NCBI GenBank assembly: GCA_020632515.1
Contig: JACKFK010000004.1
Span: 192,068-256,067, forward strand
Direction of reading: 5' to 3'
DNA: 64,000 nucleotides
From: Candidatus Omnitrophota bacterium
GTDB lineage: Bacteria; Omnitrophota; Gorgyraeia; Zapsychrales; Zapsychraceae
The position numbers and the translations under genes are program-made. Numbering within the stretch: position 1 is the stretch's first letter; every line of letters starts with the position of its first letter. Below are positions 20,676 through 39,594 of the stretch, in pieces. The notes beneath the pieces were generated by a model. It was given only the letters and a program-made list of their open reading frames with translations. It searched no databases and was not told the DNA's origin.

Positions 20676-20880
20676 GTCAATAAGTTGCTAGAACAAGTCA
20701 CAAAGTCACAAAGTCAGCTATCAGTCATCAGCGTTCAGCTATCAGAAAGTATAGTCTCCTGTCGCCAGGATACAGTGACCAGTGAAAAAGTTACAAAGCC
20801 ACAAAGTCGCAGATATTTTGTAATCTAGCAACTTTATGACACGGTGACTTTGCAACATTGTGACTTTATAACTTTTAAAT
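20676..20880 (+). repeat. intergenic repeat mosaic S1 (contains empty IS target site)
   Basis: Contains TAAGTTGCTAGAA (20681-20693), 2 x GTCACAAA (20697-20712) and 5 x CAGNNNT heptamers (20715-20749). Also contains hairpin GTCTCCTGTCGCCAGGATAC (20754-20773) and inverted GTGAC boxes up to the ATG. Confidence 0.9.
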
Positions 20881-22098: not shown

Positions 22099-22299
22099 CT
22101 TTCAGATATCAGCTATCAGAAAGAAGTCGTAACAGCTGATGACTGACAGCTGCGAAGCCAATAACTGATATGGTGACTTTGTGGCTAGAGTATTAGATTT
22201 GTATTGATGTGATCTTGCGACTTTCTGAAAGCTGACAGCTGACAGCTAAGAATCGGATAACTAACACGGTGACCTGGCAACTTTGTAACTTTTATTATT
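22099..22299 (+). repeat. intergenic repeat mosaic S2
   Basis: CAGNNNT heptamers, a degenerate GTGAC-box unit (GGTGACTTTGTGGCTAGAGTATTAGATTTG...), CTGACAG inverse heptamers and AAGAATCGGATAACTAACACGGTGAC. Confidence 0.85.
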
Positions 22300-23061: not shown

Positions 23062-23303
23062 AAGTCACATTGTTACCAGGTCACAAGGTCACCGTGTCCG
23101 AGCGGAAAATTAGCATTACAACTTTGTGACTAGAGCGTTAGATTTGTTTTGCTGTGACCTTGTAATTTTCTGATCGCTGAACGCTGACAGCTGAAATCTA
23201 AGAACCGGATAACTGACGTTGTGACATTGTGGCTAAAGCCTCGGATTTGTTTTACTGTAACATTGTGACTTTTAGAAATACATAATTTATTAAAGAGGAC
23301 AAT
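23062..23303 (+). repeat. intergenic repeat mosaic S3
   Basis: GTCACA boxes, two degenerate GTGAC-box units (…TAGAGCGTTAGATTTG…, …AAGCCTCGGATTTG…), and CTGAACGCTGACAGCTGAAATCTAAGAACCGGATAACTGAC. Confidence 0.85.
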
Positions 23304-24539
23304 ATGACAACAGAGAAATCTATGATGAAAAATTTTAAACAATCGCCGGTGGGCAAATCCATCGGTGTGTTCGTGAAATCTTTAAAACATCGCCCTTTTT
23401 ATAACGGGCATTGTAAAACGTTGCAAAAAGATCTCTTTTTTTCACCTAAGACGTATTATCCGAAAATTGTGGCTGATAGTATCCAGCAGCGACGGATTCA
23501 TCTTGATGAAACCATAAATTGGCTTTGCCGCGGACAAGATGCGAATCAGGATGGCGGGGTGGCGGTCGGGTATGGATTTCGTCAAGGATGGGGAGCGTCC
23601 TACCCGGAAACAACTGGTTACATTATTGAAACTTTTTACGAGTACGCGCAGCTAACTGGAGACGATCAATACCGCGCCCGCGCGCTAAAAATGGCGCAAT
23701 GGTTATTAAAGGTTCAAATGGAAAACGGCGCGTATCAAGGTTTTACTATTTCCGATAAAAAAGGCCCTGTGGTCTTTAATACCGGACAGATTATCTTTGG
23801 CTTGTTGAAAACGGCTTTGGAAACCCATGATGAAAAATTTTTAGAGGCTGCGCAGCGGGCTGGTGATTGGCTTGTAAATGTGCAAGACGCCAACGGCGCG
23901 TGGAGCCGGTACACATATAATGATTTCGCGCACGCGTATCACGCGCGGGTCGCCTGGCCGCTTCTTGAGTTGTATAAAATCACAAAAAAGGAATCTTATA
24001 AAACCGCGGCGATTCGAAATTGTGAATGGATTTTAACACTGCAGGATTCTAACGGCTGGTACCATCAAAACAGTTTTTTTAAAACAACGAACCCATTTAC
24101 GCATAATATTGTTTATACCACTCGGGGGATTTTTGAATCCGGCATGATTCTTAACGAAGAACACTACATTGCCTCGGCGGAAAAAGTTCTTAAGCCGTTA
24201 ATGGATTCCTTCGAACAAAAGAAATATCTTTGTGGTGAATTTAATGAAAAATGGGAATCTTCAGCTCGGTACAGTTGTTTAACCGGGAATTCGCAATTGG
24301 CTGTTTGTCTGTTTAAGTTTTATAAATTAAGAAACAAACAAGAATATCTCACCGCGGCTAAGAAGTTAAACCGTTATAATATGGCCGCGCAGGACATTGT
24401 TTCCTCAAATCCGGGAATTAAAGGCGGTATAAAAGGATCTGTGCCGGTATGGGGTGATTATATGAGCTTTTTCTGTCCGAATTGGGCTGCTAAATTCTTC
24501 GCCGACGCCCTGATGCAGGAAGTGTCAGTTTCAATCTGA
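23304..24539 (+). CDS. alpha/alpha-toroid protein with prenyltransferase/squalene-cyclase-like repeats
   Basis: Three QxxNG[AW][WY] repeats (KVQMENGAY, NVQDANGAW, TLQDSNGWY) about 50 aa apart. Good RBS AAAGAGGA. Confidence 0.45.
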   Translation: MTTEKSMMKNFKQSPVGKSIGVFVKSLKHRPFYNGHCKTLQKDLFFSPKTYYPKIVADSIQQRRIHLDETINWLCRGQDANQDGGVAVGYGFRQGWGASYPETTGYIIETFYEYAQLTGDDQYRARALKMAQWLLKVQMENGAYQGFTISDKKGPVVFNTGQIIFGLLKTALETHDEKFLEAAQRAGDWLVNVQDANGAWSRYTYNDFAHAYHARVAWPLLELYKITKKESYKTAAIRNCEWILTLQDSNGWYHQNSFFKTTNPFTHNIVYTTRGIFESGMILNEEHYIASAEKVLKPLMDSFEQKKYLCGEFNEKWESSARYSCLTGNSQLAVCLFKFYKLRNKQEYLTAAKKLNRYNMAAQDIVSSNPGIKGGIKGSVPVWGDYMSFFCPNWAAKFFADALMQEVSVSI

Positions 24540-24575
24540 AGAAAATAATTGAGAGTGAGTTGACGGTCAGTAAGA

Positions 24576-24836
24576 ATGCTTAAGGATGCTTGTGAAAAGA
24601 AATTGTTTGATGGAGAGTTAACATGTAAAGTCTTATTGCCAGAAGATATAATCGGTTTAAAAGTTCAAGCGATGATAAATGATCCACAGCGGCAAAAACA
24701 AGAAATGTTAGACATTGAGAGTTTATTAACGCTTGAGAATTACAGCGTTAATTGGAAAAAACTAGAAGAATATTTTCAGCTTTTTGAACTAACGGATGAT
24801 TTTAATATGTTAAAAAAGAGATACCAGAATGCTTAA
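24576..24836 (+). CDS. small hypothetical protein (possible C-terminal fragment of a nucleotidyltransferase-fold TA protein)
   Basis: IIGLKVQAMINDPQRQKQEMLDIESLL resembles the helical C-terminal part of NTase-fold proteins. It has an 8-nt overlap with the next small ORF. Confidence 0.3.
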   Translation: MLKDACEKKLFDGELTCKVLLPEDIIGLKVQAMINDPQRQKQEMLDIESLLTLENYSVNWKKLEEYFQLFELTDDFNMLKKRYQNA

Positions 24837-25050
24837 AGATTCTGAAAAAAAAGAAATGCTTAGACTGGCTGCGGCGGACAGTTTACGGTCGGATTTTCGC
24901 GAGCTTATTAAACGTAGACCGAAAGTATCAACAGACGCAAATACCGTGGACCTGGACTGTGTTATTAATTTTTTTAATATAGTTAATGCTTTTTGTAATC
25001 ATCAAAGAAAACCATTCCGCCGGATTATTGATAAAAATATGAAAATGTAA
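24829..25050 (+). CDS. small hypothetical protein
   Basis: The ORF is translationally coupled (ATGCTTAA overlap) to 24576..24836. No recognisable motif. Confidence 0.25.
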   Translation: MLKDSEKKEMLRLAAADSLRSDFRELIKRRPKVSTDANTVDLDCVINFFNIVNAFCNHQRKPFRRIIDKNMKM

Positions 25051-25101
25051 GATGTTTTTAAAATTGAAATAAGAACTGCTTTAATTAGTTGAAAGGAACA
25101 A

Positions 25102-26250
25102 ATGAAACGAACTAAAATTATTCTTGTCGCCGGAGCCCGGCCTAATTTTATGAAAATCGCGCCGTTGATGCGTGAATTTAAAAAACAAAAAAAATATTTT
25201 AACGCGAAGCTTTTGCACACCGGCCAGCATTACGATGTCAAAATGTCCGATGTATTTTTTAAGGAATTAAACATTCCGAAACCGGATATTTATTTAGGGG
25301 TTGGTTCTGGCTCGCACGCCGAGCAAACCGCGAAGATTATGGTTGAGTTTGAAAAGGTTGTCTTAAAAGAAAAGCCGGACATGGTCCTTGTTGTGGGTGA
25401 TGTCAATTCTACTATTGCTTGTTCCATGGTGGCCAGTAAACTGCATGTGAAGGTGATTCATGTGGAGGCAGGGTTGCGCAGTTTTGATCGAAAAATGCCG
25501 GAAGAAATTAACCGCGTGTTAACGGATTCGATATCCGATTATTTGTTTGTAACCGAGGAGAGTGGCATAGAGAATCTTAAGAACGAAGGAGTATCGCGCA
25601 AGAAAATTCATTTTGTCGGTAATACCATGATCGATACATTACTTTATAATATGGATAAGATTGATGCGTCGAGGATTTTGCATAAACTCAATTCTCAAAA
25701 ATTCTCTATTCGGCAGAACGCGTCAACAACGCCGATTCATTGGCGGGCGTATTCAATGTTGACATTGCATCGGCCCAGCAATGTCGATCATAAAGCGACA
25801 ATGATGGAAATATTTGAAATTATCAAATATATAAGTGCAAAATTGCCGATTATTTATCCTATTCATCCACGCACGAGAAAAATGATGGAAAAGCACGGGT
25901 TATTGAAAAAGTTTGAGAATCTAAAAAATCTTATTATGGTGGAGCCGTTGGGGTATGTGGATTTTCTTTTCTTAGTAAAAAACGCGCGTTTTGTCTTAAC
26001 TGATTCCGGCGGGATTCAGGAGGAAAGTACAGTTTTAAAAGTTCCGTGTTTAACAATGCGGGAAAATACAGAGCGTCCTGTAACAATGACCGTCGGCACC
26101 AATATCCTTGTTGGGCGAAATAAAATGAAATTATTCCGAGAAGTTAATAATATTTTAAAGAACCGTTTGGTTAAAGGACGGATTCCGAAATATTGGGACG
26201 GCTGCGCTGCCCAGCGGATTGTCAAAGTATTGAAAGCTAGTGGTAAGTGA
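25102..26250 (+). CDS. wecB: UDP-N-acetylglucosamine 2-epimerase (non-hydrolysing)
   Basis: KIILVAGARPNFMKIAPL...LHTGQHYD...MSDVFFKELNIPKPDIYLGVGSGSHAEQTAKIM...DSGGIQEE. Confidence 0.92.
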   Translation: MKRTKIILVAGARPNFMKIAPLMREFKKQKKYFNAKLLHTGQHYDVKMSDVFFKELNIPKPDIYLGVGSGSHAEQTAKIMVEFEKVVLKEKPDMVLVVGDVNSTIACSMVASKLHVKVIHVEAGLRSFDRKMPEEINRVLTDSISDYLFVTEESGIENLKNEGVSRKKIHFVGNTMIDTLLYNMDKIDASRILHKLNSQKFSIRQNASTTPIHWRAYSMLTLHRPSNVDHKATMMEIFEIIKYISAKLPIIYPIHPRTRKMMEKHGLLKKFENLKNLIMVEPLGYVDFLFLVKNARFVLTDSGGIQEESTVLKVPCLTMRENTERPVTMTVGTNILVGRNKMKLFREVNNILKNRLVKGRIPKYWDGCAAQRIVKVLKASGK

Positions 26251-26483
26251 TAAGTCAGAAACAAGTCATAAGGTCACAATGTCACAATGTCACAATGTCA
26301 CAAAGAGGCTAAGTCACAAGGTCATAAAGCTTCCGTTTTCTTTTTTTCTGGTCACCAGCGACTGGAGACCGGAGACTGATACACGGTGGCTTTGTGACAA
26401 AAGTTTCAGATATGCGCTGGTGTGACGTTGTGACTTTTACACGGTGACTTGGTGACTATTAGCTATCAGTCATCAGCCTTCAG
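26251..26483 (+). repeat. intergenic repeat mosaic S4a (left of IS copy 1)
   Basis: GTGGTAA/GTGATAA heptamers start inside the wecB 3' end (26240-26260). Eight phased 8-mers occupy 26265-26328. These are followed by the AAGCTTCCGTTTTCTTTTTTTCTGGTCACCAGCGACTGGAGAC module, one GTGAC-box unit and CAGNNNT heptamers. Confidence 0.9.
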
Positions 26484-26568
26484 TTAAAATGAATAATTGT
26501 GTCCTCCCATCCTAGGAGTTAACCTAGGATGAGAAAGAATAATAACCCAAAAAAGGAGGACACAAGTT

Positions 26569-27600
26569 ATGATAACAATCGGCGTTGATTTTCACAAGCA
26601 AACATCAAGTTACCATGTTTTAGATGAAAACGGAAAATTTCTTAAACGTTGTAAACTAAAAAATAATGAAGAAAATATCCGTAAATTTATTCAAAGTTTT
26701 CAAGGCCCAAAACAAGTCGCTATGGAAGCCACTCGTAATTGGGGAATATTTTTCGAATGTATCAAAGATTTAGTTGACGATTTTCAATTAGGACATCCTA
26801 AGAAAATGAAAGCCATAACAGACTCTGAAACAAAGAACGACAAGCATGACGCTCAAATGATTGCCAAACTAACTTACAGTAAGTTTTTACCTAAGGCTCA
26901 TGTAAGTCATTTAGACAATCGCCAATTACGAAGCCTTTTACGCTATCGTCATTTTCTTGTTAAGCAACGCCGCGCGATTCGTCAACAAGTTCAAACGTTA
27001 ATTGATCGTAATCTCTGGCCGTGTGATCGTCCCAAAGCGTTCAAAGATATCTTTTGTAAAAAAGGCATTCAATGGTTAAAAAGCATTACATTACATGAAA
27101 GAGAACGATTCATTCTCGATCAAGCATTAGAATCTTTTGAAGACTTAAGTCGGCGCATTCTTCAAATCGAAGATTACGTTAATCAACAAACAGCTGAACT
27201 TAAAGGCTTAGAATATTTACGAACAACGCCCGGCTTTAAAACAAGCCGTGTTAACGCCTATATTGTCTTATTAGAAACCGATGACATTCATCGTTTTCGT
27301 AAAGCGAACGGCTTTGCTCATTACGCCGGCTTAGTTCCACGTGAACATTCTTCAGGTTCAAAACAACGTCACGGCCGATTAGTTAAAAATGCTAATATGC
27401 ATTTAAGAACCGCTTTTATTGAATCAACTTTAGCCGCTATTCGTTTAGACAAAGGTCTTAAAAGTTATTACAAGAAAGTTAAAAAATCCAGCGGATCTGG
27501 CTCCGCCATCATTGCCTGTGCCCGTAAATTATCTTATGCTGTTTATCATGTTTTAAAAGATCAACGCCCTTATCGGGCTGAATCACCTGTAGCCGCCTGA
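26569..27600 (+). CDS. IS110-family (DEDD / IS116-IS110-IS902) transposase
   Basis: N-terminal ITIGVDFHKQ (DEDD RuvC-like). C-terminal YAGLVPREHSSGSKQRHGRLVKNANMHLRTAF. RBS AAAGGAGG. Confidence 0.92.
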   Translation: MITIGVDFHKQTSSYHVLDENGKFLKRCKLKNNEENIRKFIQSFQGPKQVAMEATRNWGIFFECIKDLVDDFQLGHPKKMKAITDSETKNDKHDAQMIAKLTYSKFLPKAHVSHLDNRQLRSLLRYRHFLVKQRRAIRQQVQTLIDRNLWPCDRPKAFKDIFCKKGIQWLKSITLHERERFILDQALESFEDLSRRILQIEDYVNQQTAELKGLEYLRTTPGFKTSRVNAYIVLLETDDIHRFRKANGFAHYAGLVPREHSSGSKQRHGRLVKNANMHLRTAFIESTLAAIRLDKGLKSYYKKVKKSSGSGSAIIACARKLSYAVYHVLKDQRPYRAESPVAA

Positions 27601-27780
27601 TAGCTGCCGCCTGTTTGCTTTTGCAATCGAGGTCTCTCTCAGTTTCGCGGTACTTGGTGATCAATTTTATTTTGAGTGTCTTTTTGACGACTCCAATACT
27701 AGCTTATTCACATTTTTTTGTAGTGACTTTGCGTTCTTTAAACATTTTTTTCGAACTATTGACACAATTATTCATACTAG
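27601..27780 (+). ncRNA. candidate transposon-encoded guide RNA region (bridge/seek-RNA-like), copy 1
   Basis: A 180-nt non-coding tail lies 3' of the transposase, versus only 85 nt at the 5' end. Internal ATACTAGCT (27696-27704) equals the right junction (27774-27782). Internal GCGTTCTTTAAACAT (27731-27745) resembles the left junction GCNTTCAGTTAAAATG. Confidence 0.35.
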
Positions 27781-28077
27781 CTATCAGAAAGTATAGTCTC
27801 CTGTCGCCAGGATACAGTGACCAGTACTGGTTGCTGAAGACTTGAGACTAGCGACTGATACCAACAACTGACACGGTGACATTGTGACAAGAGTTTCAGA
27901 TATGCGCTGGTGTGACATTGTGACTTTTACACGGTGACATTGCAACATTGGTTAAACCATAAACAAACCTCGGAGGTTTGTTTACGGTTATGAATCGGAC
28001 AGCTAACACGGTGACATTGTGACAAAAGTTTCAGATTTGAGCTGTTGTGACTTTTAAACTGATAACGAAAGGTTTTC
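27781..28077 (+). repeat. intergenic repeat mosaic S4b (right of IS copy 1)
   Basis: Rest of the heptamer module, hairpin GTCTCCTGTCGCCAGGATAC, the CCAGTACTGG palindrome, two GTGAC-box units and the 31-nt palindrome. Confidence 0.9.
27957..27987 (+). repeat. 31-nt palindromic hairpin element, copy a
   Basis: CCATAAACAAACCTC-G-GAGGTTTGTTTACGG (one A/C mismatch). Confidence 0.85.
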
Positions 28078-28677
28078 ATGAACGAAAACATTATCCCTCA
28101 TGAAGCAATTATTAAAAAACAAGACCGCTGGAGACTGAATCAGCATAAATCTGTTATCCTTTGGTTTACCGGGTTATCCGGATCCGGAAAATCCACCTTA
28201 TCGCATAAGTTAGAAGCAGCTTTGTATGAACGCGGTGTACGCACGTATGTTCTTGACGGCGATAATGTCCGTAAGGGCATGAATAAAGATTTAGGGTTTG
28301 CCCCGGAAGACCGCAAAGAAAATATCCGTCGTATCGGCGAGATGACCAAGCTTTTTATGGACTGCGGCATCATTATGATGACGGCGTTTATTTCTCCTTA
28401 CCGTGAAGACCGGGCCATGGTGCGTTCGTTGGTGGAGAAGAGTGAATTTGTGGAAGTTTATATGAAATGTTCCGTGGATGTTTGCGAGCGTCGTGATGTC
28501 AAAGGTCTTTACAAAAAAGCCCGTGCCGGTGAGATTAAGAATTTTACCGGAATCAGCGCGCCTTACGAAGAACCGCAAAATCCGGAAATTGTCATCGAAT
28601 CCGATGCAATGACCCTGGACGAAAGCGTTGCAAAGATCGTTCAGTATTTGGAAGAAAAAGGGTGCTTGAAGTGCTAA
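28078..28677 (+). CDS. cysC: adenylylsulfate (APS) kinase
   Basis: VILWFTGLSGSGKSTLS P-loop and YVLDGDNVRKGMNKDLGFAPEDRKENIRRIGE. Confidence 0.95.
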   Translation: MNENIIPHEAIIKKQDRWRLNQHKSVILWFTGLSGSGKSTLSHKLEAALYERGVRTYVLDGDNVRKGMNKDLGFAPEDRKENIRRIGEMTKLFMDCGIIMMTAFISPYREDRAMVRSLVEKSEFVEVYMKCSVDVCERRDVKGLYKKARAGEIKNFTGISAPYEEPQNPEIVIESDAMTLDESVAKIVQYLEEKGCLKC

Positions 28678-28888
28678 GTGATAAGTGGTAAGTGGTAAGT
28701 GGTAAGTCTGAAACAAGTCACAAAGTCGCAAAGTCACAAGGTCACAAGGTCATCGTGTCAGCTATCAGCTTTCAGCGATCAGAAAAAAATATACTCTCCG
28801 GCCGCCAGGAGTCAGTGCTGTTGAGCAGCAACCGATTCAACTTCGTAAGTTGAACTAGGTTTGCTTTGATAAAATAAAGAAATTAATA
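28678..28888 (+). repeat. intergenic repeat mosaic S5
   Basis: The heptamer array GTGCTAA GTGATAA GTGGTAA x3 (28671-28705) includes the cysC stop. Then four 8-mers (28717-28748), CAGNNNT heptamers, a degenerate CCAGGAG hairpin and the CGATTCAACTT hairpin. Confidence 0.9.
28830..28862 (+). repeat. 33-nt hairpin motif, copy 1
   Basis: AACCGATTCAACTTCGTAAGTTGAACTAGGTTT (stem TCAACTT/AAGTTGA). Confidence 0.85.
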
Positions 28889-29188
28889 ATGTCAATACGT
28901 TTGGAAAGTTTAAAACAATTAAAGGATTTAATTTTATTGAATTTAAAAGATGAGTCGATAAAAGTTTTTCTGTTTGGATCCAGCGCCCGAGAAGATTATG
29001 AAAATGGTTCGGATATTGATATTGGATTATTACCCAAAGAGTCGGTGAATGAAAATATAATAACAATTCTTAAAGAAAAAATTGAACATTTAAATATTCC
29101 TTACAAAGTTGAACTTGTTAATTTTAGGGAAACAAGTGAAGAGTTTGTTAATGATGCGATGAAAGACGCGGTGATATGGAAAGATTAA
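28889..29188 (+). CDS. mntA: minimal nucleotidyltransferase (MNT-type antitoxin)
   Basis: NTase motif LFGSSAREDYENGSDIDIGLL. Overlaps the downstream HEPN gene. Confidence 0.8.
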   Translation: MSIRLESLKQLKDLILLNLKDESIKVFLFGSSAREDYENGSDIDIGLLPKESVNENIITILKEKIEHLNIPYKVELVNFRETSEEFVNDAMKDAVIWKD

Positions 29189-29556
29189 GATTAAAACATC
29201 AAGATGCGGTAAAGGCTTTGTCTACGTTTACCGAGATTTTGGGAGAACCTTATTCCGTTATTATCCGTGATGCTAGTATTCAACGCTTTGAATATACCTT
29301 TGAAGCTTTTTGGAAATATTTTAAAGAATATTTAAAAATCAAAGAAGGGATTATGGCGGCTTCTCCTAAAGCAGTGTTTCGCGAGTTGCTGGCAATCCAA
29401 TTCGTTACAGAAGAACAGGCTGTCGCATTATTAGAGATGACTGACCGGCGTAATGACACGGTCCATACTTATAAAGAAGCTGTGGCGAAGATTATTTACG
29501 AAAAGTTACAAGGTTATTGCCAACTCATGAGAGGTGTTTTAAATATTGGTTGTTAA
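29176..29556 (+). CDS. hepT: HEPN-domain protein (HI0074-family NTase substrate-binding protein; HepT-type toxin)
   Basis: Rx4H motif RRNDTVH. Size and pairing with MNT fit the family. Confidence 0.75.
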   Translation: MERLRLKHQDAVKALSTFTEILGEPYSVIIRDASIQRFEYTFEAFWKYFKEYLKIKEGIMAASPKAVFRELLAIQFVTEEQAVALLEMTDRRNDTVHTYKEAVAKIIYEKLQGYCQLMRGVLNIGC

Positions 29557-29771
29557 GTTGCTCGTTGCTAGAAAAAGTCACAAGGTCACAAAGTCACAAA
29601 GTCACAAGGTCATAAAGCTTCCGTTTTCTTTTTTTCTGGTCACCAGCGACTGGAGACTGGAGACTGATACACGGTGGCTTGGTGACACAAGTTTCAGATT
29701 TGAGTTGTTTTGACGTTGTGACTTTTACACGATGACTTGGTGACTATTAGCTATCAGTCATCAGCATTCAG
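29557..29771 (+). repeat. intergenic repeat mosaic S6a (left of IS copy 2)
   Basis: TAAGTTGCT(CGTTGCT)AGAAAAA, five 8-mers (29577-29616), the AAGCTTCCG...GGTCACCAGCGACTGGAGAC module, one GTGAC-box unit and heptamers. Confidence 0.9.
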
Positions 29772-29856
29772 TTAAAATGAATAATTGTGTCCTCCCATCC
29801 TAGGAGTTAACCTAGGATGAGAAAGAATAATAACCCAAAAAAGGAGGACACAAGTT

Positions 29857-30888
29857 ATGATAACAATCGGCGTTGATTTTCACAAGCAAACATCAAGTTA
29901 CCATGTTTTAGATGAAAACGGAAAATTTCTTAAACGTTGTAAACTAAAAAATAATGAAGAAAATATCCGTAAATTTATTCAAAGTTTTCAAGGCCCAAAA
30001 CAAGTCGCTATGGAAGCCACTCGTAATTGGGGAATATTTTTCGAATGTATCAAAGATTTAGTTGACGATTTTCAATTAGGACATCCTAAGAAAATGAAAG
30101 CCATAACAGACTCTGAAACAAAGAACGACAAGCATGACGCTCAAATGATTGCCAAACTAACTTACAGTAAGTTTTTACCTAAGGCTCATGTAAGTCATTT
30201 AGACAATCGCCAATTACGAAGCCTTTTACGCTATCGTCATTTTCTTGTTAAGCAACGCCGCGCGATTCGTCAACAAGTTCAAACGTTAATTGATCGTAAT
30301 CTCTGGCCGTGTGATCGTCCCAAAGCGTTCAAAGATATCTTTTGTAAAAAAGGCATTCAATGGTTAAAAAGCATTACATTACATGAAAGAGAACGATTCA
30401 TTCTCGATCAAGCATTAGAATCTTTTGAAGACTTAAGTCGGCGCATTCTTCAAATCGAAGATTACGTTAATCAACAAACAGCTGAACTTAAAGGCTTAGA
30501 ATATTTACGAACAACGCCCGGCTTTAAAACAAGCCGTGTTAACGCCTATATTGTCTTATTAGAAACCGATGACATTCATCGTTTTCGTAAAGCGAACGGC
30601 TTTGCTCATTACGCCGGCTTAGTTCCACGTGAACATTCTTCAGGTTCAAAACAACGTCACGGCCGATTAGTTAAAAATGCTAATATGCATTTAAGAACCG
30701 CTTTTATTGAATCAACTTTAGCCGCTATTCGTTTAGACAAAGGTCTTAAAAGTTATTACAAGAAAGTTAAAAAATCCAGCGGATCTGGCTCCGCCATCAT
30801 TGCCTGTGCCCGTAAATTATCTTATGCTGTTTATCATGTTTTAAAAGATCAACGCCCTTATCGGGCTGAATCACCTGTAGCCGCCTGA
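29857..30888 (+). CDS. IS110-family transposase (identical 343-aa product)
   Basis: Same translation as 26569..27600. Confidence 0.92.
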   Translation: MITIGVDFHKQTSSYHVLDENGKFLKRCKLKNNEENIRKFIQSFQGPKQVAMEATRNWGIFFECIKDLVDDFQLGHPKKMKAITDSETKNDKHDAQMIAKLTYSKFLPKAHVSHLDNRQLRSLLRYRHFLVKQRRAIRQQVQTLIDRNLWPCDRPKAFKDIFCKKGIQWLKSITLHERERFILDQALESFEDLSRRILQIEDYVNQQTAELKGLEYLRTTPGFKTSRVNAYIVLLETDDIHRFRKANGFAHYAGLVPREHSSGSKQRHGRLVKNANMHLRTAFIESTLAAIRLDKGLKSYYKKVKKSSGSGSAIIACARKLSYAVYHVLKDQRPYRAESPVAA

Positions 30889-31068
30889 TAGCTGCCGCCT
30901 GTTTGCTTTTGCAATCGAGGTCTCTCTCAGTTTCGCGGTACTTGGTGATCAATTTTATTTTGAGTGTCTTTTTGACGACTCCAATACTAGCTTATTCACA
31001 TTTTTTTGTAGTGACTTTGCGTTCTTTAAACATTTTTTTCGAACTATTGACACAATTATTCATACTAG
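30889..31068 (+). ncRNA. candidate transposon-encoded guide RNA region, copy 2
   Basis: Identical to 27601-27780. Confidence 0.35.
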
Positions 31069-31302
31069 CTATCAGAAAGTATAGTCTCCTGTCGCCAGGA
31101 GACAGTGACCAGTACTGGTTGCTGGAAACTTGAGACTAGCGACTGATACCAACAACTGACACGGTGACATTGTGACAAGAGTTTCAGATATGCGCTGATG
31201 TGACGTTGTGACTTTTACACGGTGACTTTGTGACACAAGTTTCAGATTTGGGTTGTTGTGACATTGTGACTTGTCGATAGCTAAGAACCGGATAACGGAC
31301 TT
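31069..31302 (+). repeat. intergenic repeat mosaic S6b
   Basis: Heptamer remainder, hairpin GTCTCCTGTCGCCAGGAGAC, CCAGTACTGG, two tandem GTGAC-box units and CGATAGCTAAGAACCGGATAAC. Confidence 0.9.
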
Positions 31303-32103
31303 ATGAACGAACTTTTAAAAGTTATTAAAACCGCGGTCAAGGCGGGTGCGGCGACAATGGAAATCTACACAACAGATTTTGCTGTTGAGTACAAAGACGA
31401 CCAATCACCGCTGACGCTGGCCGATAAAAAATCGCATGAAATTATTGTCGCTGGATTGCAAAGTCTGGATCTGGCTGCGCCGATTTTAAGTGAAGAAGGC
31501 CGCAGTATTACCTATGATGAGCGCCGGCAGTGGGATTGTTTCTGGTGTGTTGATCCGCTGGACGGGACCAAAGAATTTGTGAATAAGCGCGATGAATTTA
31601 CTGTCAACATCGCTTTTATCGACGGACAGAAACCGATTCTTGGGGTTATCTATGTCCCGGCGAAAAAAATACTTTATTTTGCCGGCAAAGGGATTGGCGT
31701 TTATAAATGCGATCATTTAGATCAGTTAAATGAGATGGAAAGCCTGGATCAGCTTTTTTCAGTTTCACAAACATTACCAAATTGTGAAAACAATCGTCCG
31801 TACACGGTGGTGGCGAGTAAATCCCACATGAATCAGGCAACGGAAGAGTTTATTGATGAATTGAAAAAAAAGACAGAAGACTTGGAATTAATCAGCGCCG
31901 GCAGTTCGCTGAAGTTTTGTTTAGTGGCCGAGGGAAAAGCTGATTGTTACCCGCGTTTTGGCCCGACTTGTGAATGGGACACCGCAGCCGGCCAGGCCAT
32001 TTGCCAGGAAGCAGGTTTTGATGTTGTGGATCATACAAACGGCGGTACATTGAAATATAATAAGGAAGACTTGCTTAATCCGTCATTTTTGGTGATGAGA
32101 TAA
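31303..32103 (+). CDS. cysQ: 3'(2'),5'-bisphosphate nucleotidase
   Basis: ILSEEG and WCVDPLDGTKEF inositol-monophosphatase-family motifs, plus C-terminal WDTAAGQAI. Confidence 0.9.
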   Translation: MNELLKVIKTAVKAGAATMEIYTTDFAVEYKDDQSPLTLADKKSHEIIVAGLQSLDLAAPILSEEGRSITYDERRQWDCFWCVDPLDGTKEFVNKRDEFTVNIAFIDGQKPILGVIYVPAKKILYFAGKGIGVYKCDHLDQLNEMESLDQLFSVSQTLPNCENNRPYTVVASKSHMNQATEEFIDELKKKTEDLELISAGSSLKFCLVAEGKADCYPRFGPTCEWDTAAGQAICQEAGFDVVDHTNGGTLKYNKEDLLNPSFLVMR

Positions 32104-32326
32104 GTGCTGTTGTAGCGATCAGCCATCAAATGTCACAAGGTCACAAGGTCACAAAGTCGCAAAGTCGCAAAGTCGCAAAGTCGCAAAGTCACAAAGTCGC
32201 AAAGATACCAAGTCACAATGTCACAAAGTCATAAAGCTTCCGTTTTCTTTTTTTCTGGTCACCAGCGACTGGAGACTGATACACGGTGACATTGTGACTT
32301 TCTGAAAGCTGTCAACCGACACAACC
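32104..32326 (+). repeat. intergenic repeat mosaic S7 with longest octamer array
   Basis: Thirteen phased 8-mers occupy 32132-32235 (GTCACAAG x2, GTCACAAA, GTCGCAAA x4, ...). Then the AAGCTTCCG...GGTCACCAGCGACTGGAGAC module. Confidence 0.92.
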
Positions 32327-32355
32327 TTGACAATGTGGATATATGGTATTATAGT
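32327..32355 (+). promoter_or_regulatory. sigma70-type promoter of AAA+ ATPase 1
   Basis: TTGACA-17 nt-TATAGT. The GTG at 32335 used by the ORF track lies inside the spacer. Confidence 0.65.
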
Positions 32356-32391
32356 TATACTGCAAATGATATATATGAAATTATGGTAAAC

Positions 32392-33696
32392 ATGATTATT
32401 CAACGTGATATTATACACAAAATTAAACCTTTTTTAGAGCGCAGGGAATGTTTAGCCCTTATCGGCCCGCGGCAGACAGGAAAAACTACTCTTTTACAGC
32501 TAATTACAGACTATTTATATAAAGAAAAAAATGTTGATAAGGAATTGGTAAAGAGGATCAGTTTTGAAGACCGGAAACTGTTGTTTCAATTTGAAAAAGA
32601 TCCTTGTGAATTTGTTAGATCTTATTGGCCGGGGGCTGCCAAGCAAACGTTTTACTTTATGATTGATGAGTTTCAATACGCCAGCGAAGGTGGACAAAAG
32701 TTAAAACTGATTTATGACACCTTTACCAATCTTAAGCTATTGATTACAGGATCATCATCTCTGGATCTGCGGGCGCAGGTGGGAAAATATATGGTAGGAC
32801 GGATATTGAGTTTTTATATTTATCCGTTTAATTTTCATGAAATCTTAAAAACGAGGTCTTCTCGTTTAGAACGCGCTTACGCACGGCAAAACAAACAAAT
32901 TAAAAATTGGCTCTTTGAAAATCAACCCCTGGATTTGAAAAAAGGTGATGATTTGTTACACGAGGAAATGACAAAAGCCTTTGAAGATTACTGTGTTTGG
33001 GGCGGGTACCCGCAAATTGTCCTTACAGAAGATATTGAACAAAGAAAGAAAGTTTTAAATGATCTTTATAACAATTATCTTTTAAAAGACATTAAAACAT
33101 CATTAGAGTTGGCCACAGAAAAAGAGCTTTATAAACTTTCGCAATATATCGCGACACAGGTAGGACAGATTACGGTTTATCAGAATTTATCTCAGGCCTC
33201 AGGGCTTGAGTACCGGACTTTAAAAAAGCATTTATCGATTTTAGAAGAAACATTTATTATTAAAAGTGTAACGCCGTTTTTCAGAAATAAACAGAAAGAG
33301 CTGTCGCGGAATCCTAAAATATTTTTCTTGGATATGGGGTTTCGCAACGCGCTTATCGACGATATCAATGATCTGGAAAAAAGGCCCGATGCCGGGAACA
33401 TGGTGGAAAATACGGTATATGTACAGCTTTTAAAAAACTTTATACAGGCTGATAAATTAAATTTTTACCGGACTAAAATGGGCTCAGAAATTGATTTTAT
33501 CACATGGAATAACCACGCCATTATTCCAATGGAAGTTAAATATAAAGTTTTTAAACAAGAGCAGATTTCTAAAGGATTTCGTAGTTTTATTGAGCAGTTT
33601 AAGCCGGAGAAGGCCATTGTTTGGACAAAGAACTTCTGGGGGATGCTCGAAGAAAATGGAACGCAGATTTTGTTTGCACCGGGGTATTATTGTTAA
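32392..33696 (+). CDS. AAA+ ATPase, COG1373 type (AAA_14 + DUF4143), paralog 1
   Basis: Walker A GPRQTGKTTLLQ and Walker B FYFMIDEFQY. The start was moved to ATG 32392 (32383 is also possible) because of the upstream promoter. Confidence 0.8.
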   Translation: MIIQRDIIHKIKPFLERRECLALIGPRQTGKTTLLQLITDYLYKEKNVDKELVKRISFEDRKLLFQFEKDPCEFVRSYWPGAAKQTFYFMIDEFQYASEGGQKLKLIYDTFTNLKLLITGSSSLDLRAQVGKYMVGRILSFYIYPFNFHEILKTRSSRLERAYARQNKQIKNWLFENQPLDLKKGDDLLHEEMTKAFEDYCVWGGYPQIVLTEDIEQRKKVLNDLYNNYLLKDIKTSLELATEKELYKLSQYIATQVGQITVYQNLSQASGLEYRTLKKHLSILEETFIIKSVTPFFRNKQKELSRNPKIFFLDMGFRNALIDDINDLEKRPDAGNMVENTVYVQLLKNFIQADKLNFYRTKMGSEIDFITWNNHAIIPMEVKYKVFKQEQISKGFRSFIEQFKPEKAIVWTKNFWGMLEENGTQILFAPGYYC

Positions 33697-34078
33697 GTTG
33701 CTAGAAAAGATCGCAAAGTGACCTTGTGACTTTCTGAAAGTTGACGACTGAAAGTGAAAGCTAAGAGTCGGACAACTGACACGGTGCCATTGTGACAAAA
33801 GTTTCAGATTTGAGTTGTTTTGACGCTGTGGCTTTTACACGGTGACTTTGTGACACAAGTTTCAGATTTGGGTTGTTGTGACATTGTGACTTGTCGATAG
33901 CTAAGAACCGGATAACTGACACGGTGCCATTGTGACAAGAGTTTCAGATTTGAGCTGTTGTGACCTTGTGACTTGTTGACAGCTGACATCTGAATTGATT
34001 AAAACCGTAAACAAACCTCCGAGGTTTGTTTGTGGTTAAGAACCGGATAACTGACAATTCGACATTTCAGATTGTTAT
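33697..34078 (+). repeat. intergenic repeat mosaic S8
   Basis: TAAGTTGCTAGAAAA at the stop and inverse heptamers. Three 58-nt GTGAC-box units at 33779-33836, 33837-33894 and 33919-33976. The 31-nt palindrome is also present. Confidence 0.92.
34005..34035 (+). repeat. 31-nt palindromic hairpin element, copy b
   Basis: CCGTAAACAAACCTC-C-GAGGTTTGTTTGTGG. The two non-Watson-Crick positions are G.U-compatible on the + strand only. Confidence 0.85.
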
Positions 34079-34107
34079 TTGACAAAATGACTATCATACT
34101 GTATAAT
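34079..34107 (+). promoter_or_regulatory. consensus sigma70-type promoter of AAA+ ATPase 2
   Basis: TTGACA-17 nt-TATAAT, both hexamers perfect. Confidence 0.75.
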
Positions 34108-34150
34108 TACTTTATAAAATGATATTATTTATTGAGGATAAGGGGCAGAA

Positions 34151-35350: not shown

Positions 35351-35648
35351 GTCTCCTGTCGCCAGGAGACAGTGATCAGTAAGAAACAACCGATTCAACT
35401 TCGTAAGTTGAACTAGGTTTACTTGTGACTTTCTGAAATCTGACAGCTGAAAGCTAAGAACCGGATAACTGACACGGTGACATTGTGACAAGAGTTTCAG
35501 ATTTGAGTTGTTTTGACGTTGTGACTTTTACACGGTGACTTGGTGACACAAGTTTCAGATTTGAGCTGTTGTGACTTTTTGACAGCTACGCACCGGATAA
35601 CTGACACAGTGACATTGTGACTTTTGTACGAAACATGAAAGGATTTTT
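35351..35648 (+). repeat. intergenic repeat mosaic S9
   Basis: Hairpin GTCTCCTGTCGCCAGGAGAC (35351-35370), the 33-nt hairpin, inverse heptamers and two tandem GTGAC-box units, ending in GTGACATTGTGAC just before the gmd RBS. Confidence 0.9.
35388..35420 (+). repeat. 33-nt hairpin motif, copy 2
   Basis: AACCGATTCAACTTCGTAAGTTGAACTAGGTTT, identical to copy 1. Confidence 0.85.
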
Positions 35649-36737: not shown

Positions 36738-36850
36738 AAGTCGCAAAGTCACCGTGTCAGCTTTCAGCTATCAGTCTTCAGCGATCAGAAAACCACAAAC
36801 AAACCTCCGAGGTTTGTTTGTGGTTAAGAACCGAATAACTGACTTACTAT
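36738..36850 (+). repeat. intergenic repeat mosaic S10
   Basis: GTCGCAAAGTCAC, CAGNNNT heptamers, the 31-nt palindrome and TTAAGAACCGAATAACTGAC. Confidence 0.9.
36793..36823 (+). repeat. 31-nt palindromic hairpin element, copy c
   Basis: CCACAAACAAACCT-CCG-AGGTTTGTTTGTGG, a perfect 14-bp stem. Confidence 0.85.
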
Positions 36851-37894: not shown

Positions 37895-37898
37895 GAGT

Positions 37899-37931
37899 AA
37901 CCGATTCAACTTCGTAAGTTGAACTAGGTTT
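37899..37931 (+). repeat. 33-nt hairpin motif, copy 3 (mosaic S11)
   Basis: AACCGATTCAACTTCGTAAGTTGAACTAGGTTT lies 4 nt after the fcl stop. Confidence 0.85.
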
Positions 37932-37939
37932 GCGCTTAG

Positions 37940-37968: not shown

Positions 37969-37973
37969 TTACG

Positions 37974-39233: not shown

Positions 39234-39565
39234 TATTTCAGTCTTCGGTCGCCAGGAGAGATCAAGTCGCAAAGTCGCAAAGTCACAAGGTCACAAGGTC
39301 ACAAGGTCACAAGGTCACAAAGTTTCCAGATTTCAAATACGGTGGCTTTGTGACTATCAGCCATCAGCGTTCAGCTATCAGCTATCAGAAGAAAAAAATC
39401 TGATCGCTGAAATCTGAAAGCTGACGACTGAAAGCTAAGAGCTGGATAAGTGACATGGTGACATTGTGACTTTTTCACGGTGACTTTGTGACTAGAGGAT
39501 TAGATTTGGATTGATGTGACTTTGTGACTTGTTGAAAGCTAGGAGTCGGATAACTGACTTTACCC
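39234..39565 (+). repeat. intergenic repeat mosaic S12
   Basis: Degenerate CCAGGAGAG hairpin and seven 8-mers (39266-39321). A heptamer array holds a second intact IS-target-like site (CATCAGCGTTCAG|CTATCAG, junction 39374/39375). An A-rich centre is followed by inverse heptamers and a GTGAC-box unit. Confidence 0.9.
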
Positions 39566-39594
39566 TTGTCTAATGAGCGTTAATAGTGTATAAT
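39566..39594 (+). promoter_or_regulatory. sigma70-type promoter of abiEi-abiEii
   Basis: TTGTCT-17 nt-TATAAT. Confidence 0.6.

What the first reader, a model, noticed from the sequence alone, without database searches (positions are those of the whole stretch)
26484..31068. IS110-family element inserted twice at the identical position of the heptamer repeat, with an intact empty site in the same window
Two copies of a 1297-bp element (26484-27780 and 29772-31068) are indistinguishable by eye, and each encodes the same 343-aa DEDD/IS110-type transposase.

Removing the element from either locus regenerates ...AGCTATCAGTCATCAGCNTTCAG|CTATCAGAAAGTATAGTCTCCTGTCGCCAGGA.... Over about 68 nt this matches the uninterrupted sequence at 20715-20773 (junction 20738/20739) with a single mismatch. 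AG is present at both junctions, so a 2-nt core is ambiguous.

The flanks of the two copies differ at scattered positions. They are therefore independent insertions into two members of the repeat family, not a segmental duplication. Further near-identical target candidates exist, such as CATCAGCGTTCAG|CTATCAG at 39374/39375.

Targeting of repeated extragenic palindromes is established for some IS110-family members, for example IS621 into E. coli REPs. The element has subterminal IRs (ATGAATAATTGTGTC / GACACAATTATTCAT). It also has a long 180-nt 3' non-coding tail and a short 5' end, which is the layout of the IS1111 subgroup.
Basis: partly seen in the sequence, partly recalled or inferred. Interest (0 to 1): 0.7.

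Follow-up and report, generated by a model that had tools for sequence, protein, structure and literature searches.

The report
RNA-guided IS1111-type insertion sequence, two copies
Two identical copies of a small jumping gene sit at the same 11-base motif of a short tandem repeat in an Omnitrophota genome, and the element carries its own guide RNA that spells out that motif, so it is a well-behaved new member of the known bridge-RNA/seekRNA insertion sequences.

Summary
Windows 26484-27780 and 29772-31068 are 1297-bp copies with 0 differences. Each encodes a 343-aa IS110-family DEDD transposase. Each is inserted at ...TCAG|CTATCAG... with an AG core, and an intact empty site lies at 20738/20739.

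Ten metagenome contigs carry the same element. They show at least 6 different left and 7 different right junctions, and all read TCAG|CTATCAG. The window holds 7 more unoccupied exact sites, all on the + strand, against 0.01 expected by chance.

The 3' end encodes an IS1111-type bridge/seek RNA:
- Guide CUGAUAGCUG (27597-27606, overlapping the stop codon) is the reverse complement of CAG|CTATCAG.
- Guide UCAG (27639-27642) copies the left flank.

About 35 relatives (55-68% identical transposases, mostly Omnitrophota-type contigs) have guides at the same positions. These guides covary with more than 10 different targets. The closing stem also covaries. Joining the element's ends makes TTGACA-N17-TAAAAT.

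This is a new member of a known kind, naturally retargeted from a palindromic repeat to a heptamer array. Interest is modest. Expression, circle formation and activity are inferred, not shown.

The parts
26484..27780 (+). IS copy 1 (1297 bp, counting one copy of the AG core at its right end)
   Evidence: Identical to copy 2. Boundaries are fixed by the empty site at 20738/20739 and by 10 metagenome copies.
29772..31068 (+). IS copy 2. Every sub-feature of copy 1 recurs at +3288.
   Evidence: 0 mismatches to copy 1. Sub-feature coordinates were checked for both copies.
26482..26483 (+). AG core in the left flank. The same AG ends the element at 27779-27780. For copy 2 the positions are 29770-29771 and 31067-31068.
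   Evidence: In all 35 relatives, the dinucleotide before TTAAAATG equals the last two bases of the right end, either GG or AG.
26485..26490 (+). TAAAAT, the -10 half of the promoter that forms only when the ends are joined
   Evidence: The joined ends give TTGACA-N17-TAAAAT. This is conserved with a 16-18 nt spacer in 37/37 family members. No promoter-like site lies upstream of tnp in the integrated copy.
26488..26503 (+). Left subterminal inverted repeat AATGAATAATTGTGTC
26499..26563 (+). 5' UTR fold in which GUGUCCUCC (26499-26507) pairs with the ribosome-binding site GGAGGACAC (26555-26563), enclosing a variable inner hairpin
   Evidence: Free energy is -31.8 kcal/mol against -11.8 +/- 2.8 for shuffles, z = -7.0. 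The same fold appears in all relatives, with differing inner hairpins.
26569..27600 (+). tnp, a 343-aa DEDD transposase. D7, E53, D91 and D94 are invariant in the clade alignment, and GLVPREHSSG starts at residue 254.
27583..27596 (+). 5' arm of the closing stem of the target-binding loop. It lies inside the last codons of tnp.
   Evidence: It pairs with 27647-27660. Across 27 relatives 94.3% of cells are paired and 7 of 13 pairs show compensatory changes; slid controls give 23-58%. The single-sequence minimum-energy fold also recovers the stem.
27597..27606 (+). Right-target guide ('T' guide) CUGAUAGCUG. It is the reverse complement of target CAG|CTATCAG (positions -3 to +7) and contains the tnp stop codon TGA (27598-27600).
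   Evidence: Guides at the homologous position in about 28 relatives match their own right flank over 7-11 nt. Permutation test: 126/161 against 94.3 +/- 4.9, with 0 of 20000 permutations as high.
27607..27638 (+). Variable stem-loop between the two target guides
   Evidence: A hairpin of unrelated sequence occupies this position in every relative.
27639..27642 (+). Left-target guide ('B' guide) UCAG. It is identical to the last 4 nt of every left flank (TC plus the AG core).
   Evidence: In relatives this guide copies 2-7 nt of the left flank plus the core. Permutation test: 93/138 against 44.9 +/- 5.5, with 0 of 20000 as high.
27647..27660 (+). 3' arm of the closing stem of the target-binding loop
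27664..27669 (+). AUUUUA, the reverse complement of left-end bases TAAAAT. Candidate donor guide for the left-end side of the circle junction.
   Evidence: It is invariant in the family except in L118, where the left end reads TACAAT and the RNA reads AUUGUA. That is one compensatory event.
27674..27693 (+). Stem-loop GAGUGUC-UUUUU-GACGACUC between the two donor-side segments
   Evidence: The four outer pairs all show both-sided changes across 31 sequences. The fold is also predicted from the single sequence.
27696..27702 (+). AUACUAG, an internal copy of the element's own last 7 nt including the core. Candidate donor guide for the right-end side.
   Evidence: The 7-mer equals the element's own right-end terminus in 36 of 37 elements, across four sequence classes: ATAGTGG, ATAGTAG, ATACTAG and ATAGGAG.
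27631..27724 (+). Conserved core of the non-coding RNA, as detected by a covariance model built from relatives only
   Evidence: 66.2 bits, E = 4e-11 at 27631-27724 and at 30919-31012. The next hit in the 64 kb window has E = 0.2.
27759..27764 (+). TTGACA, the -35 half of the junction promoter
27761..27776 (+). Right subterminal inverted repeat GACACAATTATTCATA
20735..20745 (+). Unoccupied target TCAG|CTATCAG (junction 20738/20739). This is the empty-site homologue of both insertions.
20714..20724 (+). Unoccupied exact target
22109..22119 (+). Unoccupied exact target
28758..28768 (+). Unoccupied exact target, located between the two IS copies
36764..36774 (+). Unoccupied exact target
39371..39388 (+). 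Two overlapping unoccupied exact targets (junctions 39374/39375 and 39381/39382)

Best explanation
This is an active or recently active insertion sequence of the IS110 family, IS1111 group, native to a Candidatus Omnitrophota genome. It chooses its insertion site with an RNA that it encodes itself.

**Proposed cycle (inferred from sequence and from the family's known biology)**
1. The element excises as a circle in which the right and left ends abut around one AG core.
2. This junction creates the promoter TTGACA-N17-TAAAAT.
3. The promoter transcribes tnp and, on the same transcript, the 3' RNA.

**The RNA (about 27580-27725)**
- It folds into a target-binding loop closed by a 13-bp stem.
- The 5' guide CUGAUAGCUG pairs with the top strand of CAG|CTATCAG.
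- The 3' guide UCAG pairs with the bottom strand of TCAG.
- Together the guides read the 11-bp site TCAG|CTATCAG, overlapping at the core.
- A second module carries AUUUUA (complement of the left end) and AUACUAG (a copy of the right end plus core). This module is proposed to hold the donor junction.

**Outcome**
- The DEDD transposase exchanges strands at the AG core. The element therefore enters in one orientation, without a target duplication.
- The site is the joint between two units of a heptamer tandem repeat that litters the intergenic regions of this locus, so many equivalent sites exist. Two of nine in the window are occupied.
- In the integrated state, translation of read-through transcripts is probably blocked, because the ribosome-binding site is paired with the left inverted repeat.

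**What is shown:** sequences, boundaries, target consensus, guide/target complementarity, covariation and promoter motifs.
**What is inferred:** transcription and processing of the RNA, circle formation and catalysis.
For: - **Identity, boundaries, empty site:**
- **Protein family:**
- **Other copies:** the same 1297-bp element (1-5 SNPs, none in the guides) occurs in 10 metagenome contigs. They give at least 6 left and at least 7 right junction types, all TCAG|CTATCAG.
- **Target abundance:** the motif is over-represented 700-fold and occurs only on the + strand.
- **Guide match in this element:** a 10-nt perfect match of the guide to the target.
- **Guides in relatives:** positionally homologous guides in about 28-35 relatives follow more than 10 different targets. 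Permutation tests give 0 of 20000 for both guides.
- **Closing stem:** covaries, with 7 of 13 pairs compensatory and 94% paired against 23-58% when slid. It is also recovered by single-sequence folding, z = -2.6.
- **RNA model:** a covariance model built without the window sequence finds exactly the two copies, E = 4e-11.
- **Junction promoter:** conserved in 37/37 members.
- **Literature:** IS1111 elements carry the bridge RNA in the right end (PMC11208160). IS1111 seekRNAs place the top-strand match 5' of the bottom-strand match, the matches overlap in the target, and natural re-direction is known (PMC11187229).
Against: - There are no expression data, no circle-junction reads and no biochemical test.
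- The left guide is only 4 nt (2 nt plus the core), so most of the specificity rests on one guide.
- The register of the right guide relative to the stem shifts by +/-1 nt in a few relatives.
- The donor-side pairing rests on one compensatory event for the left end (L118), plus covariation of the right-end copy.
- No closing stem for the donor module could be fixed.
- The 0-mismatch identity of the two copies could partly reflect assembly or polishing of a metagenome-assembled genome.
- Metagenome contigs that cross the element may be chimeric, so left and right junctions cannot be paired.
- Rfam has no matching family.
Confidence: 0.87

Rival explanations
1. The two copies arose by segmental duplication, or by repeat-mediated gene conversion, of a block made of repeat, IS and repeat. 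They are not two transposition events.
For: The flanks are 94-97% identical for about 160-200 bp on each side. The copies lie only 2 kb apart in direct orientation.
Against: - The flanks differ at 15 of about 328 positions while the 1297-bp element differs at 0. At the flank rate, about 59 differences would be expected.
- The same flank modules occur elsewhere in the window without the element.
- Metagenome copies sit at other members of the repeat, with unrelated distal flanks.
- Gene conversion confined exactly to the element is possible, but it is not needed to explain the data.
Confidence: 0.04
2. Site choice is made by the transposase protein alone, or by the subterminal repeats. Under this view the matches between the 3' region and the target are coincidental or serve another role.
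For: No experiment was done here. IS1111 subterminal repeats are thought to be protein-bound. The left guide is only 4 nt.
Against: - The guides change in step with the targets across more than 10 target classes, while the transposases stay 55-68% identical.
- The stem that presents the guides covaries.
- RNA-guided targeting has been shown experimentally for four IS1111 members (PMC11187229).
Confidence: 0.05
3. The tandem arrangement is an assembly artefact of the metagenome-assembled genome. There would be one real insertion, copied or mis-joined by the assembler.
For: A 1.3-kb exact repeat is hard to assemble. Several metagenome contigs join a window flank on one side to a non-window flank on the other.
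Against: - Both left junctions are independently present in other assemblies. L003 and L005 match 26164-26483 at 99.7%, and L006 matches 29300-29771 at 100%.
- Copy 2's right junction is also present: L002 matches 31069-31654 at 99.1%.
- The two sites have distinguishable flanks.
Confidence: 0.03

Closest known systems
ISEc11 / ISXne4 and other IS1111-family elements with a seekRNA (Siddiquee et al. 2024, PMC11187229)
   Same: - Transposase of about 340 aa with the GL-P----SG motif.
- Subterminal inverted repeats, a short left end and a long 3' non-coding region.
- A promoter formed at the circle junction.
- An RNA from the 3' region with a top-strand match 5' of a bottom-strand match, the two overlapping at the insertion point.
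- Natural re-direction of close relatives to new targets by changing only the guides.
   Different: - The transposase is only about 23% identical to the one enterobacterial IS1111-type transposase I could retrieve, which I take to be IS5075-like from its GGAATGGTCGCCTCC / GGAGGCGACCATC subterminal repeats (the record annotates it only as an IS110 family transposase). The best plasmid-borne relative is 36% identical.
- The 5' guide and one arm of the closing stem lie inside the tnp reading frame, and here the guide contains the stop codon.
- The guides are strongly asymmetric (10 nt and 4 nt).
- The host phylum is Omnitrophota.
- I could not check ISfinder.
IS621 / ISCro4 bridge recombinases (IS110 group; PMC11208160, PMC11208158; PDB 8wt6, 9t56)
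   Same: - DEDD plus Tnp-domain recombinase.
- A 2-nt core.
- An RNA module built as stem, guide, stem-loop, guide, which reads one strand on each side of the core.
- A second module for the donor junction.
- A junction promoter.
   Different: - The RNA is in the right end, not the left end.
- The order of the guides is reversed: the top-strand reader comes first.
- The subterminal repeats are long.
- The core is AG (GG in relatives) instead of CT.
- Protein similarity is limited to the C-terminal half, E = 5e-11 to 5e-13.
REP-targeting IS110/IS1111 elements (IS621 in E. coli, ISPa11 in P. aeruginosa, ISPpu9/ISPpu10 in P. putida)
   Same: They exploit a short intergenic repeat present in many copies, and insert in one orientation at one position of the repeat. 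Most relatives of the window element do target a palindrome: GGATTCCCGC-N4-GCGGG|AATGACA.
   Different: The window element's target is not palindromic. It is the joint of two units of a heptamer tandem array, so one array can offer several overlapping registers (for example 39371 and 39378).
IS1111-attC group (ISKpn4, ISPst6, ISPa25) and IS4321/IS5075
   Same: These are IS1111 members that home to a repeated recombination site, either attC or the Tn21 inverted repeats, in arrays of co-oriented genes.
   Different: No integrase and no attC-like structure was seen among the genes I scanned around the insertions. The target sequence is unrelated.

Membership tests
IS110 family (DEDD transposase insertion sequences) | Transposase with an N-terminal DEDD/RuvC-like domain (PF01548) and a C-terminal PF02371 domain | tested here: met
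   PF01548 E = 7e-20 and PF02371 E = 2.6e-20. NF033542 scores 205 bits against a cut-off of 140.
IS110 family (DEDD transposase insertion sequences) | Conserved acidic residues and the G..P....SG serine motif | tested here: met
   D7, E53, D91 and D94 are invariant in the 25-sequence alignment. GLVPREHSSG starts at residue 254. Which residues are catalytic is inferred by analogy with IS621.
IS110 family (DEDD transposase insertion sequences) | No terminal inverted repeats, no real target duplication, a short core shared by element and target, and fixed orientation at a specific site | tested here: met
   AG is present once in the flank and once at the right end. The empty site is regenerated exactly. 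All copies have the same orientation relative to TCAG|CTATCAG.
IS1111 group | Subterminal inverted repeats of 7-17 bp | tested here: met
   A 15-16 bp repeat, set 4 bp in from each end.
IS1111 group | The longer non-coding region lies downstream of tnp, and the transposase is 330-350 aa | tested here: met
   180 nt at the 3' end against 85 nt at the 5' end, and a 343-aa protein. The criteria are taken from PMC11187229.
IS1111 group | Transposase related over its full length to that of IS1111 | tested here: inconclusive
Identity is 23% over residues 3-337 to an enterobacterial IS1111-type transposase that I take to be IS5075-like, which has the same GLVPxxHSSG motif. For IS621 and ISCro4, only the C-terminal half aligns.
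IS1111 group | Circular intermediate with an active junction promoter | not testable with these tools
   Only the motif is shown: TTGACA-N17-TAAAAT across the joined ends, conserved in 37/37 relatives.
Bridge RNA / seekRNA-guided recombination | Structured RNA in the long non-coding end, built as stem, guide, stem-loop, guide | tested here: met
   The closing stem covaries. A hairpin lies between the guides in all relatives. The minimum-energy fold has z = -2.6. A covariance model built from relatives hits both copies at E = 4e-11.
Bridge RNA / seekRNA-guided recombination | Two guides complementary to opposite strands of the target, overlapping at the core, and covarying with the target across relatives | tested here: met
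   CUGAUAGCUG and UCAG against TCAG|CTATCAG. Family-wide covariation is significant, with 0 of 20000 permutations as high for each guide.
Bridge RNA / seekRNA-guided recombination | Second loop complementary to the donor (right end - core - left end) junction | tested here: inconclusive
   The internal 7-mer equals the element's own right end in 36 of 37 elements, across 4 sequence classes. The left-end complement AUUUUA has one compensatory case, L118. No closing stem was established.
Bridge RNA / seekRNA-guided recombination | The RNA is expressed, binds the transposase and is required for transposition | not testable with these tools
   This needs RNA-seq, RNP purification or a transposition assay.
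Bridge RNA / seekRNA-guided recombination | Match to a curated RNA family | tested here: not met
   Rfam 15 gave no relevant hit at E <= 1 over 20000-40000.
REP-targeting IS | Target is a repetitive extragenic palindrome | tested here: not met
   The target is the joint of two tandem heptamers, and the recognised 11 nt is not a hairpin. Relatives do target a palindrome.
IS1111-attC group | Insertion into attC sites of an integron cassette array | tested here: not met
   No integrase was found among the 20 neighbouring proteins scanned, and the target is unrelated to attC. Genes outside about 19-43 kb and at 59 kb were not scanned.

The most novel reading that the evidence does not exclude
In this Omnitrophota clade, the guide that reads the right half of the target, and one arm of the stem that presents it, are translated as the last codons of the transposase.

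- Each natural retargeting therefore rewrites the protein's C-terminal tail. The clade consensus ...PPAAxCH... comes from the guide UGUCAU.
- In the window element the new guide itself supplies the stop codon (TGA within CUGAUAGCUG). This gives the shortest protein of the 120 best hits: 343 aa against 344-369 aa.
- If this dual coding limits which targets the clade can reach, it would be an undescribed rule of bridge-RNA evolution.
- The same may apply to the extreme 10+4 guide asymmetry and to the near-target that the guide DNA creates on the element's own minus strand (GCAG|CTATCAG, one mismatch).

A further possibility is that the element homes to the heptamer/octamer repeat blocks flanking nearly every gene of a variable surface-glycan and toxin-antitoxin region. 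In that case it may help shuffle those genes.
Probability: 0.3. Interest if true: 0.45.

Novelty: new member of a known kind. Interest (0 to 1): 0.3.

Why it matters
The element gives a clean natural example of retargeting of an IS1111-type guide RNA, from a palindromic repeat to a linear tandem-repeat joint.

- Occupied sites, empty sites and the guide are all visible in one 64-kb window.
- A ready-made comparative series of about 35 relatives reads more than 10 different targets.

The series could be used to learn the pairing rules of the less-studied IS1111 branch of bridge recombinases: guide lengths, register, the AG/GG core and the donor module. It also adds compact 343-aa enzymes from an uncultured phylum.

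For the host, it marks the heptamer arrays of a surface-polysaccharide locus as hotspots for insertion and IS-mediated rearrangement.

It does not reveal a new mechanism.

Tried and rejected
- **Genome scan with the single protein**: found nothing. The alignment-based rescan gave only one close genome hit, Omnitrophica RIFCSPLOWO2_12_FULL_44_17 at 61%. The full source genome could therefore not be searched for further copies.
- **Rfam**: only a spurious mir-320 hit on the 5' UTR hairpin and a weak GEBRO hit.
- **Folding the 3' non-coding region alone** (27595-27782): not better than shuffles, z = -0.25. The fold became clear only when the last tnp codons were included.
- **RNAalifold on a MAFFT alignment of the RNA core**: recovered only 4 pairs, because the hairpins vary in length. 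The closing stem had to be tested on an anchored, ungapped block alignment.
- **Handshake-type extension:** I considered that the nucleotides after the right-end copy (CUUAU...) extend the pairing into the right flank. They match in the GG|AATGACA class but not across AG-core classes, so I do not claim it.
- **Integron/attC context:** rejected for lack of an integrase and of attC features in the scanned genes.
- **Polymorphic occupancy of the window's empty sites:** no metagenome junction maps convincingly to them. The best case is the L006 right flank against 39382-39471, at 89.7%.
- **ISEc11 reference locus** (NZ_CP053751): not in the collections.

Full report
**1. Observation**

The two segments 26484-27780 and 29772-31068 are each 1297 bp and differ at no position.
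- Each contains an ORF (26569-27600 and 29857-30888) for a 343-aa protein.
- The protein matches both Pfam domains of IS110-family transposases: PF01548 at E = 7e-20 and PF02371 at E = 2.6e-20.
- It also matches NCBIfam NF033542, 'IS110 family RNA-guided transposase', at 205 bits against a cut-off of 140.
- It carries the GL-P----SG motif as GLVPREHSSG.

Removing copy 1 restores a 68-nt sequence that equals 20716-20783 except for one base. Copy 2 differs at two bases. AG is present both immediately left of the element and as its last two bases.

The flanks of the two copies are similar for about 170 bp on the left (10 mismatches) and 158 bp on the right (5 mismatches), and then diverge. The layout is as described: subterminal inverted repeats of 15-16 bp, an 85-nt 5' end and a 180-nt 3' end.

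**2. Independent insertions at one motif**

At the flank divergence (15 of about 328 positions), a duplicated block would be expected to show about 59 differences within the element. None is seen.

The exact transposase sequence is on record in at least 24 short metagenome contigs.
- In the ten contigs retrieved, the same 1297-bp element has 1-5 SNPs, none of them in the guides.
- It is always bounded by ...TCAG on the left and CTATCAG... on the right.
- There are at least six different left flanks and seven different right flanks.
- Some flanks are those of the window. L003 and L005 match 26164-26483, L006 matches 29300-29771, and L002 matches 31069-31654. The rest are not in the window.

Contigs that cross a 1.3-kb repeat may be chimeric, so I count left and right junctions separately.

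In the window, the exact 11-mer TCAGCTATCAG occurs seven more times. All are unoccupied and all are on the + strand, against 0.01 expected. No partial copies or orphan RNA modules exist in the window.

The element's G+C content (36.9%) equals that of the window (37.2%). The neighbouring proteins are exact matches to a Candidatus Omnitrophota MAG contig of 256 kb.

**3. What sets the target: an element-encoded guide RNA**

The sequence CTGATAGCTG at 27597-27606 overlaps the tnp stop codon TGA (27598-27600). It is the perfect reverse complement of the target from -3 to +7, CAG|CTATCAG. Thirty-two nucleotides downstream, TCAG (27639-27642) repeats the only four bases conserved in all left flanks.

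To test whether this is more than coincidence, I collected relatives. There were 59 metagenome loci and one Omnitrophica genome locus, with transposases 55-68% identical.
- About 35 of them have recognisable ends: TTAAAATGAAT..TTGTGTC on the left and TTGACACAA..TTCATA-NN-core on the right.
- In every case the two bases before the left end equal the last two of the right end, either GG or AG.
- Their targets differ. Most sit in a palindrome, GGATTCCCGC-N4-GCGGG|AATGACA. Others are ..GCAAAG|CTCAATA, ..CTCCTCAG|GATGACA, ..GCTCAG|GATGAGC, ..GCCAAG|AATGGTA, ..CAAGAG|GAGCACC and so on.

In all of them the 3' region has the same plan:
1. a conserved block, CCGCCAGCGGCCGCC, that is part of the last tnp codons;
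2. 7-11 nt that are the reverse complement of the element's own core plus right flank;
3. a hairpin of arbitrary sequence;
4. 2-7 nt identical to the element's own left flank plus core;
5. the conserved tract TTT(T/C)GCGGCGCTTGGTGGTGAATTTTAT.

With targets permuted among 23 distinct elements, the right guide matches 126 of 161 positions, against 94.3 +/- 4.9 (maximum 118). The left guide matches 93 of 138, against 44.9 +/- 5.5 (maximum 71). None of 20000 permutations reached the observed value for either guide. The relatedness of the sequences inflates such tests, but more than 10 independent target classes are involved.

The block before the first guide and the tract after the second form a 13-bp stem (window 27583-27596 with 27647-27660).
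- Across 27 sequences, 94.3% of cells are paired.
- Seven pairs show changes on both sides.
- Sliding the partner by 1-3 columns drops pairing to 23-58%.
- Single-sequence folding of 27579-27732 finds the same stem, with z = -2.6.

This is the 'stem, guide, stem-loop, guide' design of the IS621 target-binding loop (PMC11208158) with the guide order reversed. That reversal is what was reported for IS1111-type seekRNAs: the top-strand match lies 5' of the bottom-strand match, and the matches overlap in the target (PMC11187229). Location of the RNA in the right end is also the IS1111 rule (PMC11208160).

**4. Donor side and expression signals**

Downstream of the target module lie, in order:
- AUUUUA (27664-27669), the complement of left-end bases TAAAAT;
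- a covarying hairpin (27674-27693);
- AUACUAG (27696-27702), a copy of the element's own last seven bases.

That 7-mer equals the element's own right end in 36 of 37 elements, across four sequence classes. In L118 the left end reads TACAAT and the RNA reads AUUGUA, which is one compensatory event. I read this as the donor-binding module, with less certainty than for the target module.

Joining the right and left ends around one core gives TTGACA-N17-TAAAAT. This motif is conserved with a 16-18 nt spacer in all 37 elements. No promoter-like site precedes tnp in the integrated copy. This matches the P_junc promoter of ISEc11 (PMC11187229).

In the 5' UTR, GUGUCCUCC (26499-26507, overlapping the left inverted repeat) pairs with the ribosome-binding site GGAGGACAC (26555-26563). 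The free energy is -31.8 kcal/mol with z = -7. The same arrangement, with different inner hairpins, is present in every relative. It probably keeps read-through transcripts from the co-oriented upstream genes untranslated.

A covariance model built from 27 relatives, without the window sequence, detects 27631-27724 and 30919-31012 at 66 bits (E = 4e-11). Nothing else in the 64 kb scores below E = 0.2.

**5. Comparison with known systems**

The element behaves like an IS1111-group member with a seekRNA/bridge RNA, and it meets the structural criteria I could test (see the membership table).
- It is distant in sequence from characterised elements. The best plasmid-borne relative is 36% identical (Rhizobium). 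An enterobacterial IS1111-type transposase, which I take to be IS5075-like from its subterminal repeats, is 23% identical. IS621 and ISCro4 share only C-terminal similarity.
- Retargeting among close relatives by changing only the guides is known, as for ISEc11 and ISXne4.

The points particular to this element are as follows.
- Its target is a linear joint within a heptamer tandem array rather than a palindrome.
- Its guides are very asymmetric (10 nt and 4 nt).
- The first guide and one stem arm are inside the reading frame. The clade's C-terminal '...CH...' is the translation of the guide UGUCAU. In the window element the guide provides the stop codon, giving the shortest protein of the 120 best hits.
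- The guide DNA also creates a one-mismatch pseudo-target, GCAG|CTATCAG, on the element's own minus strand.

**6. Context**

The insertions lie in a co-oriented gene run.
- Surface-polysaccharide genes include WecG-type transferase, UDP-GlcNAc 2-epimerase, APS kinase, CysQ-like phosphatase, GDP-mannose dehydratase and other epimerases.
- These are interleaved with toxin-antitoxin pairs (MNT/HepT and AbiEi/AbiEii) and with AAA_14/DUF4143 ATPases.
- Their intergenic regions are mosaics of octamer arrays (AAGTCACA)n, heptamer arrays (NNNTCAG)n, 58-nt units and hairpins.
- No integrase was seen among the genes scanned.

**7. Verdict**

The element is a new member of a known kind. Its site choice is explained by a guide RNA of the type described in 2024. 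Interest is modest (0.3): the element is useful as a comparative series for IS1111-type guide rules and as a marker of insertion hotspots in this Omnitrophota locus, but it is not mechanistically new. Transcription, processing, circle formation and catalysis remain inferred.

Noticed in passing
window 20690-41600 (for example 32127-32236, 39264-39323, 31159-31272, 35472-35583): Nearly every intergenic region in this 20-kb stretch is a mosaic of the same modules: octamer arrays (AAGTCACA, up to 13.6 copies), heptamer arrays (NNNTCAG on either strand), 58-nt tandem units rich in GTGAC, and the hairpin GTCTCCTGTCGCCAGGAGAC. The modules recur in different combinations. Their function is unknown. 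The IS target is one joint within the heptamer module.
   Followed up: partly
window 6341-6974: A 205-bp unit is repeated 3.1 times at 99% identity, just upstream of the gene at 6999-8561.
   Followed up: no
window 28824-28866, 35382-35424, 37893-37935, 58464-58506, 60442-60484, 63704-63746: A six-member family of a 43-nt palindromic element (AACCGATTCAACTTCGTAAGTTGAACTAGGTTT), mostly right after gene ends. It may be a REP-like element or a terminator family.
   Followed up: no
window 27953-28007, 34001-34055, 36789-36843: A three-member hairpin family (AAACCGTAAACAAACCTCCGAGGTTTGTTTGTGGTT), terminator-like, within the same intergenic mosaics.
   Followed up: no
window 32335-33696, 34151-35350, 37974-39233, 59218-60399 (minus strand): Four paralogous AAA_14/DUF4143 ATPase genes are scattered through the polysaccharide locus. 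Two toxin-antitoxin pairs lie among them: MNT/HepT at 28889-29556 and AbiEi/AbiEii at 39635-41133. The segment between the two IS copies carries APS kinase plus MNT/HepT.
   Followed up: partly
window 27597-27607 and 30885-30895, minus strand: Because the right-target guide is almost the whole target, the element's own DNA carries GCAG|CTATCAG on the minus strand. This is one mismatch from a perfect target, with G instead of the invariant T at -4. It may be a built-in safeguard against self-insertion.
   Followed up: no
window 26499-26563 (and 29787-29851); the LE regions of L011 and L091-L147: The ribosome-binding site of tnp is sequestered by pairing with the inner part of the left inverted repeat (z = -7). 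The fold is conserved in all relatives, with compensating inner hairpins.
   Followed up: yes
L011, L094, L099, L105, L117, L120 and others (flanks of related elements): Most relatives are inserted in a palindromic repeat, GGATTCCCGC-N4-GCGGG|AATGACA. This appears to be a REP-like element of Omnitrophota-type genomes.
   Followed up: partly
L003, L005 (left flank = window 26164-26483) and L002, L007 (right flank = window 31069-31654): These metagenome contigs join a window flank on one side of the element to a flank that is absent from the window on the other side. They are either assembly chimeras through the repeat or real IS-mediated rearrangements between strains.
   Followed up: partly
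window 27583 (and 30871): All ten metagenome copies have C where the window copies have T. The change alters one codon and falls in the 5' arm of the RNA closing stem (U-A in the window, C/A in the others).
   Followed up: no
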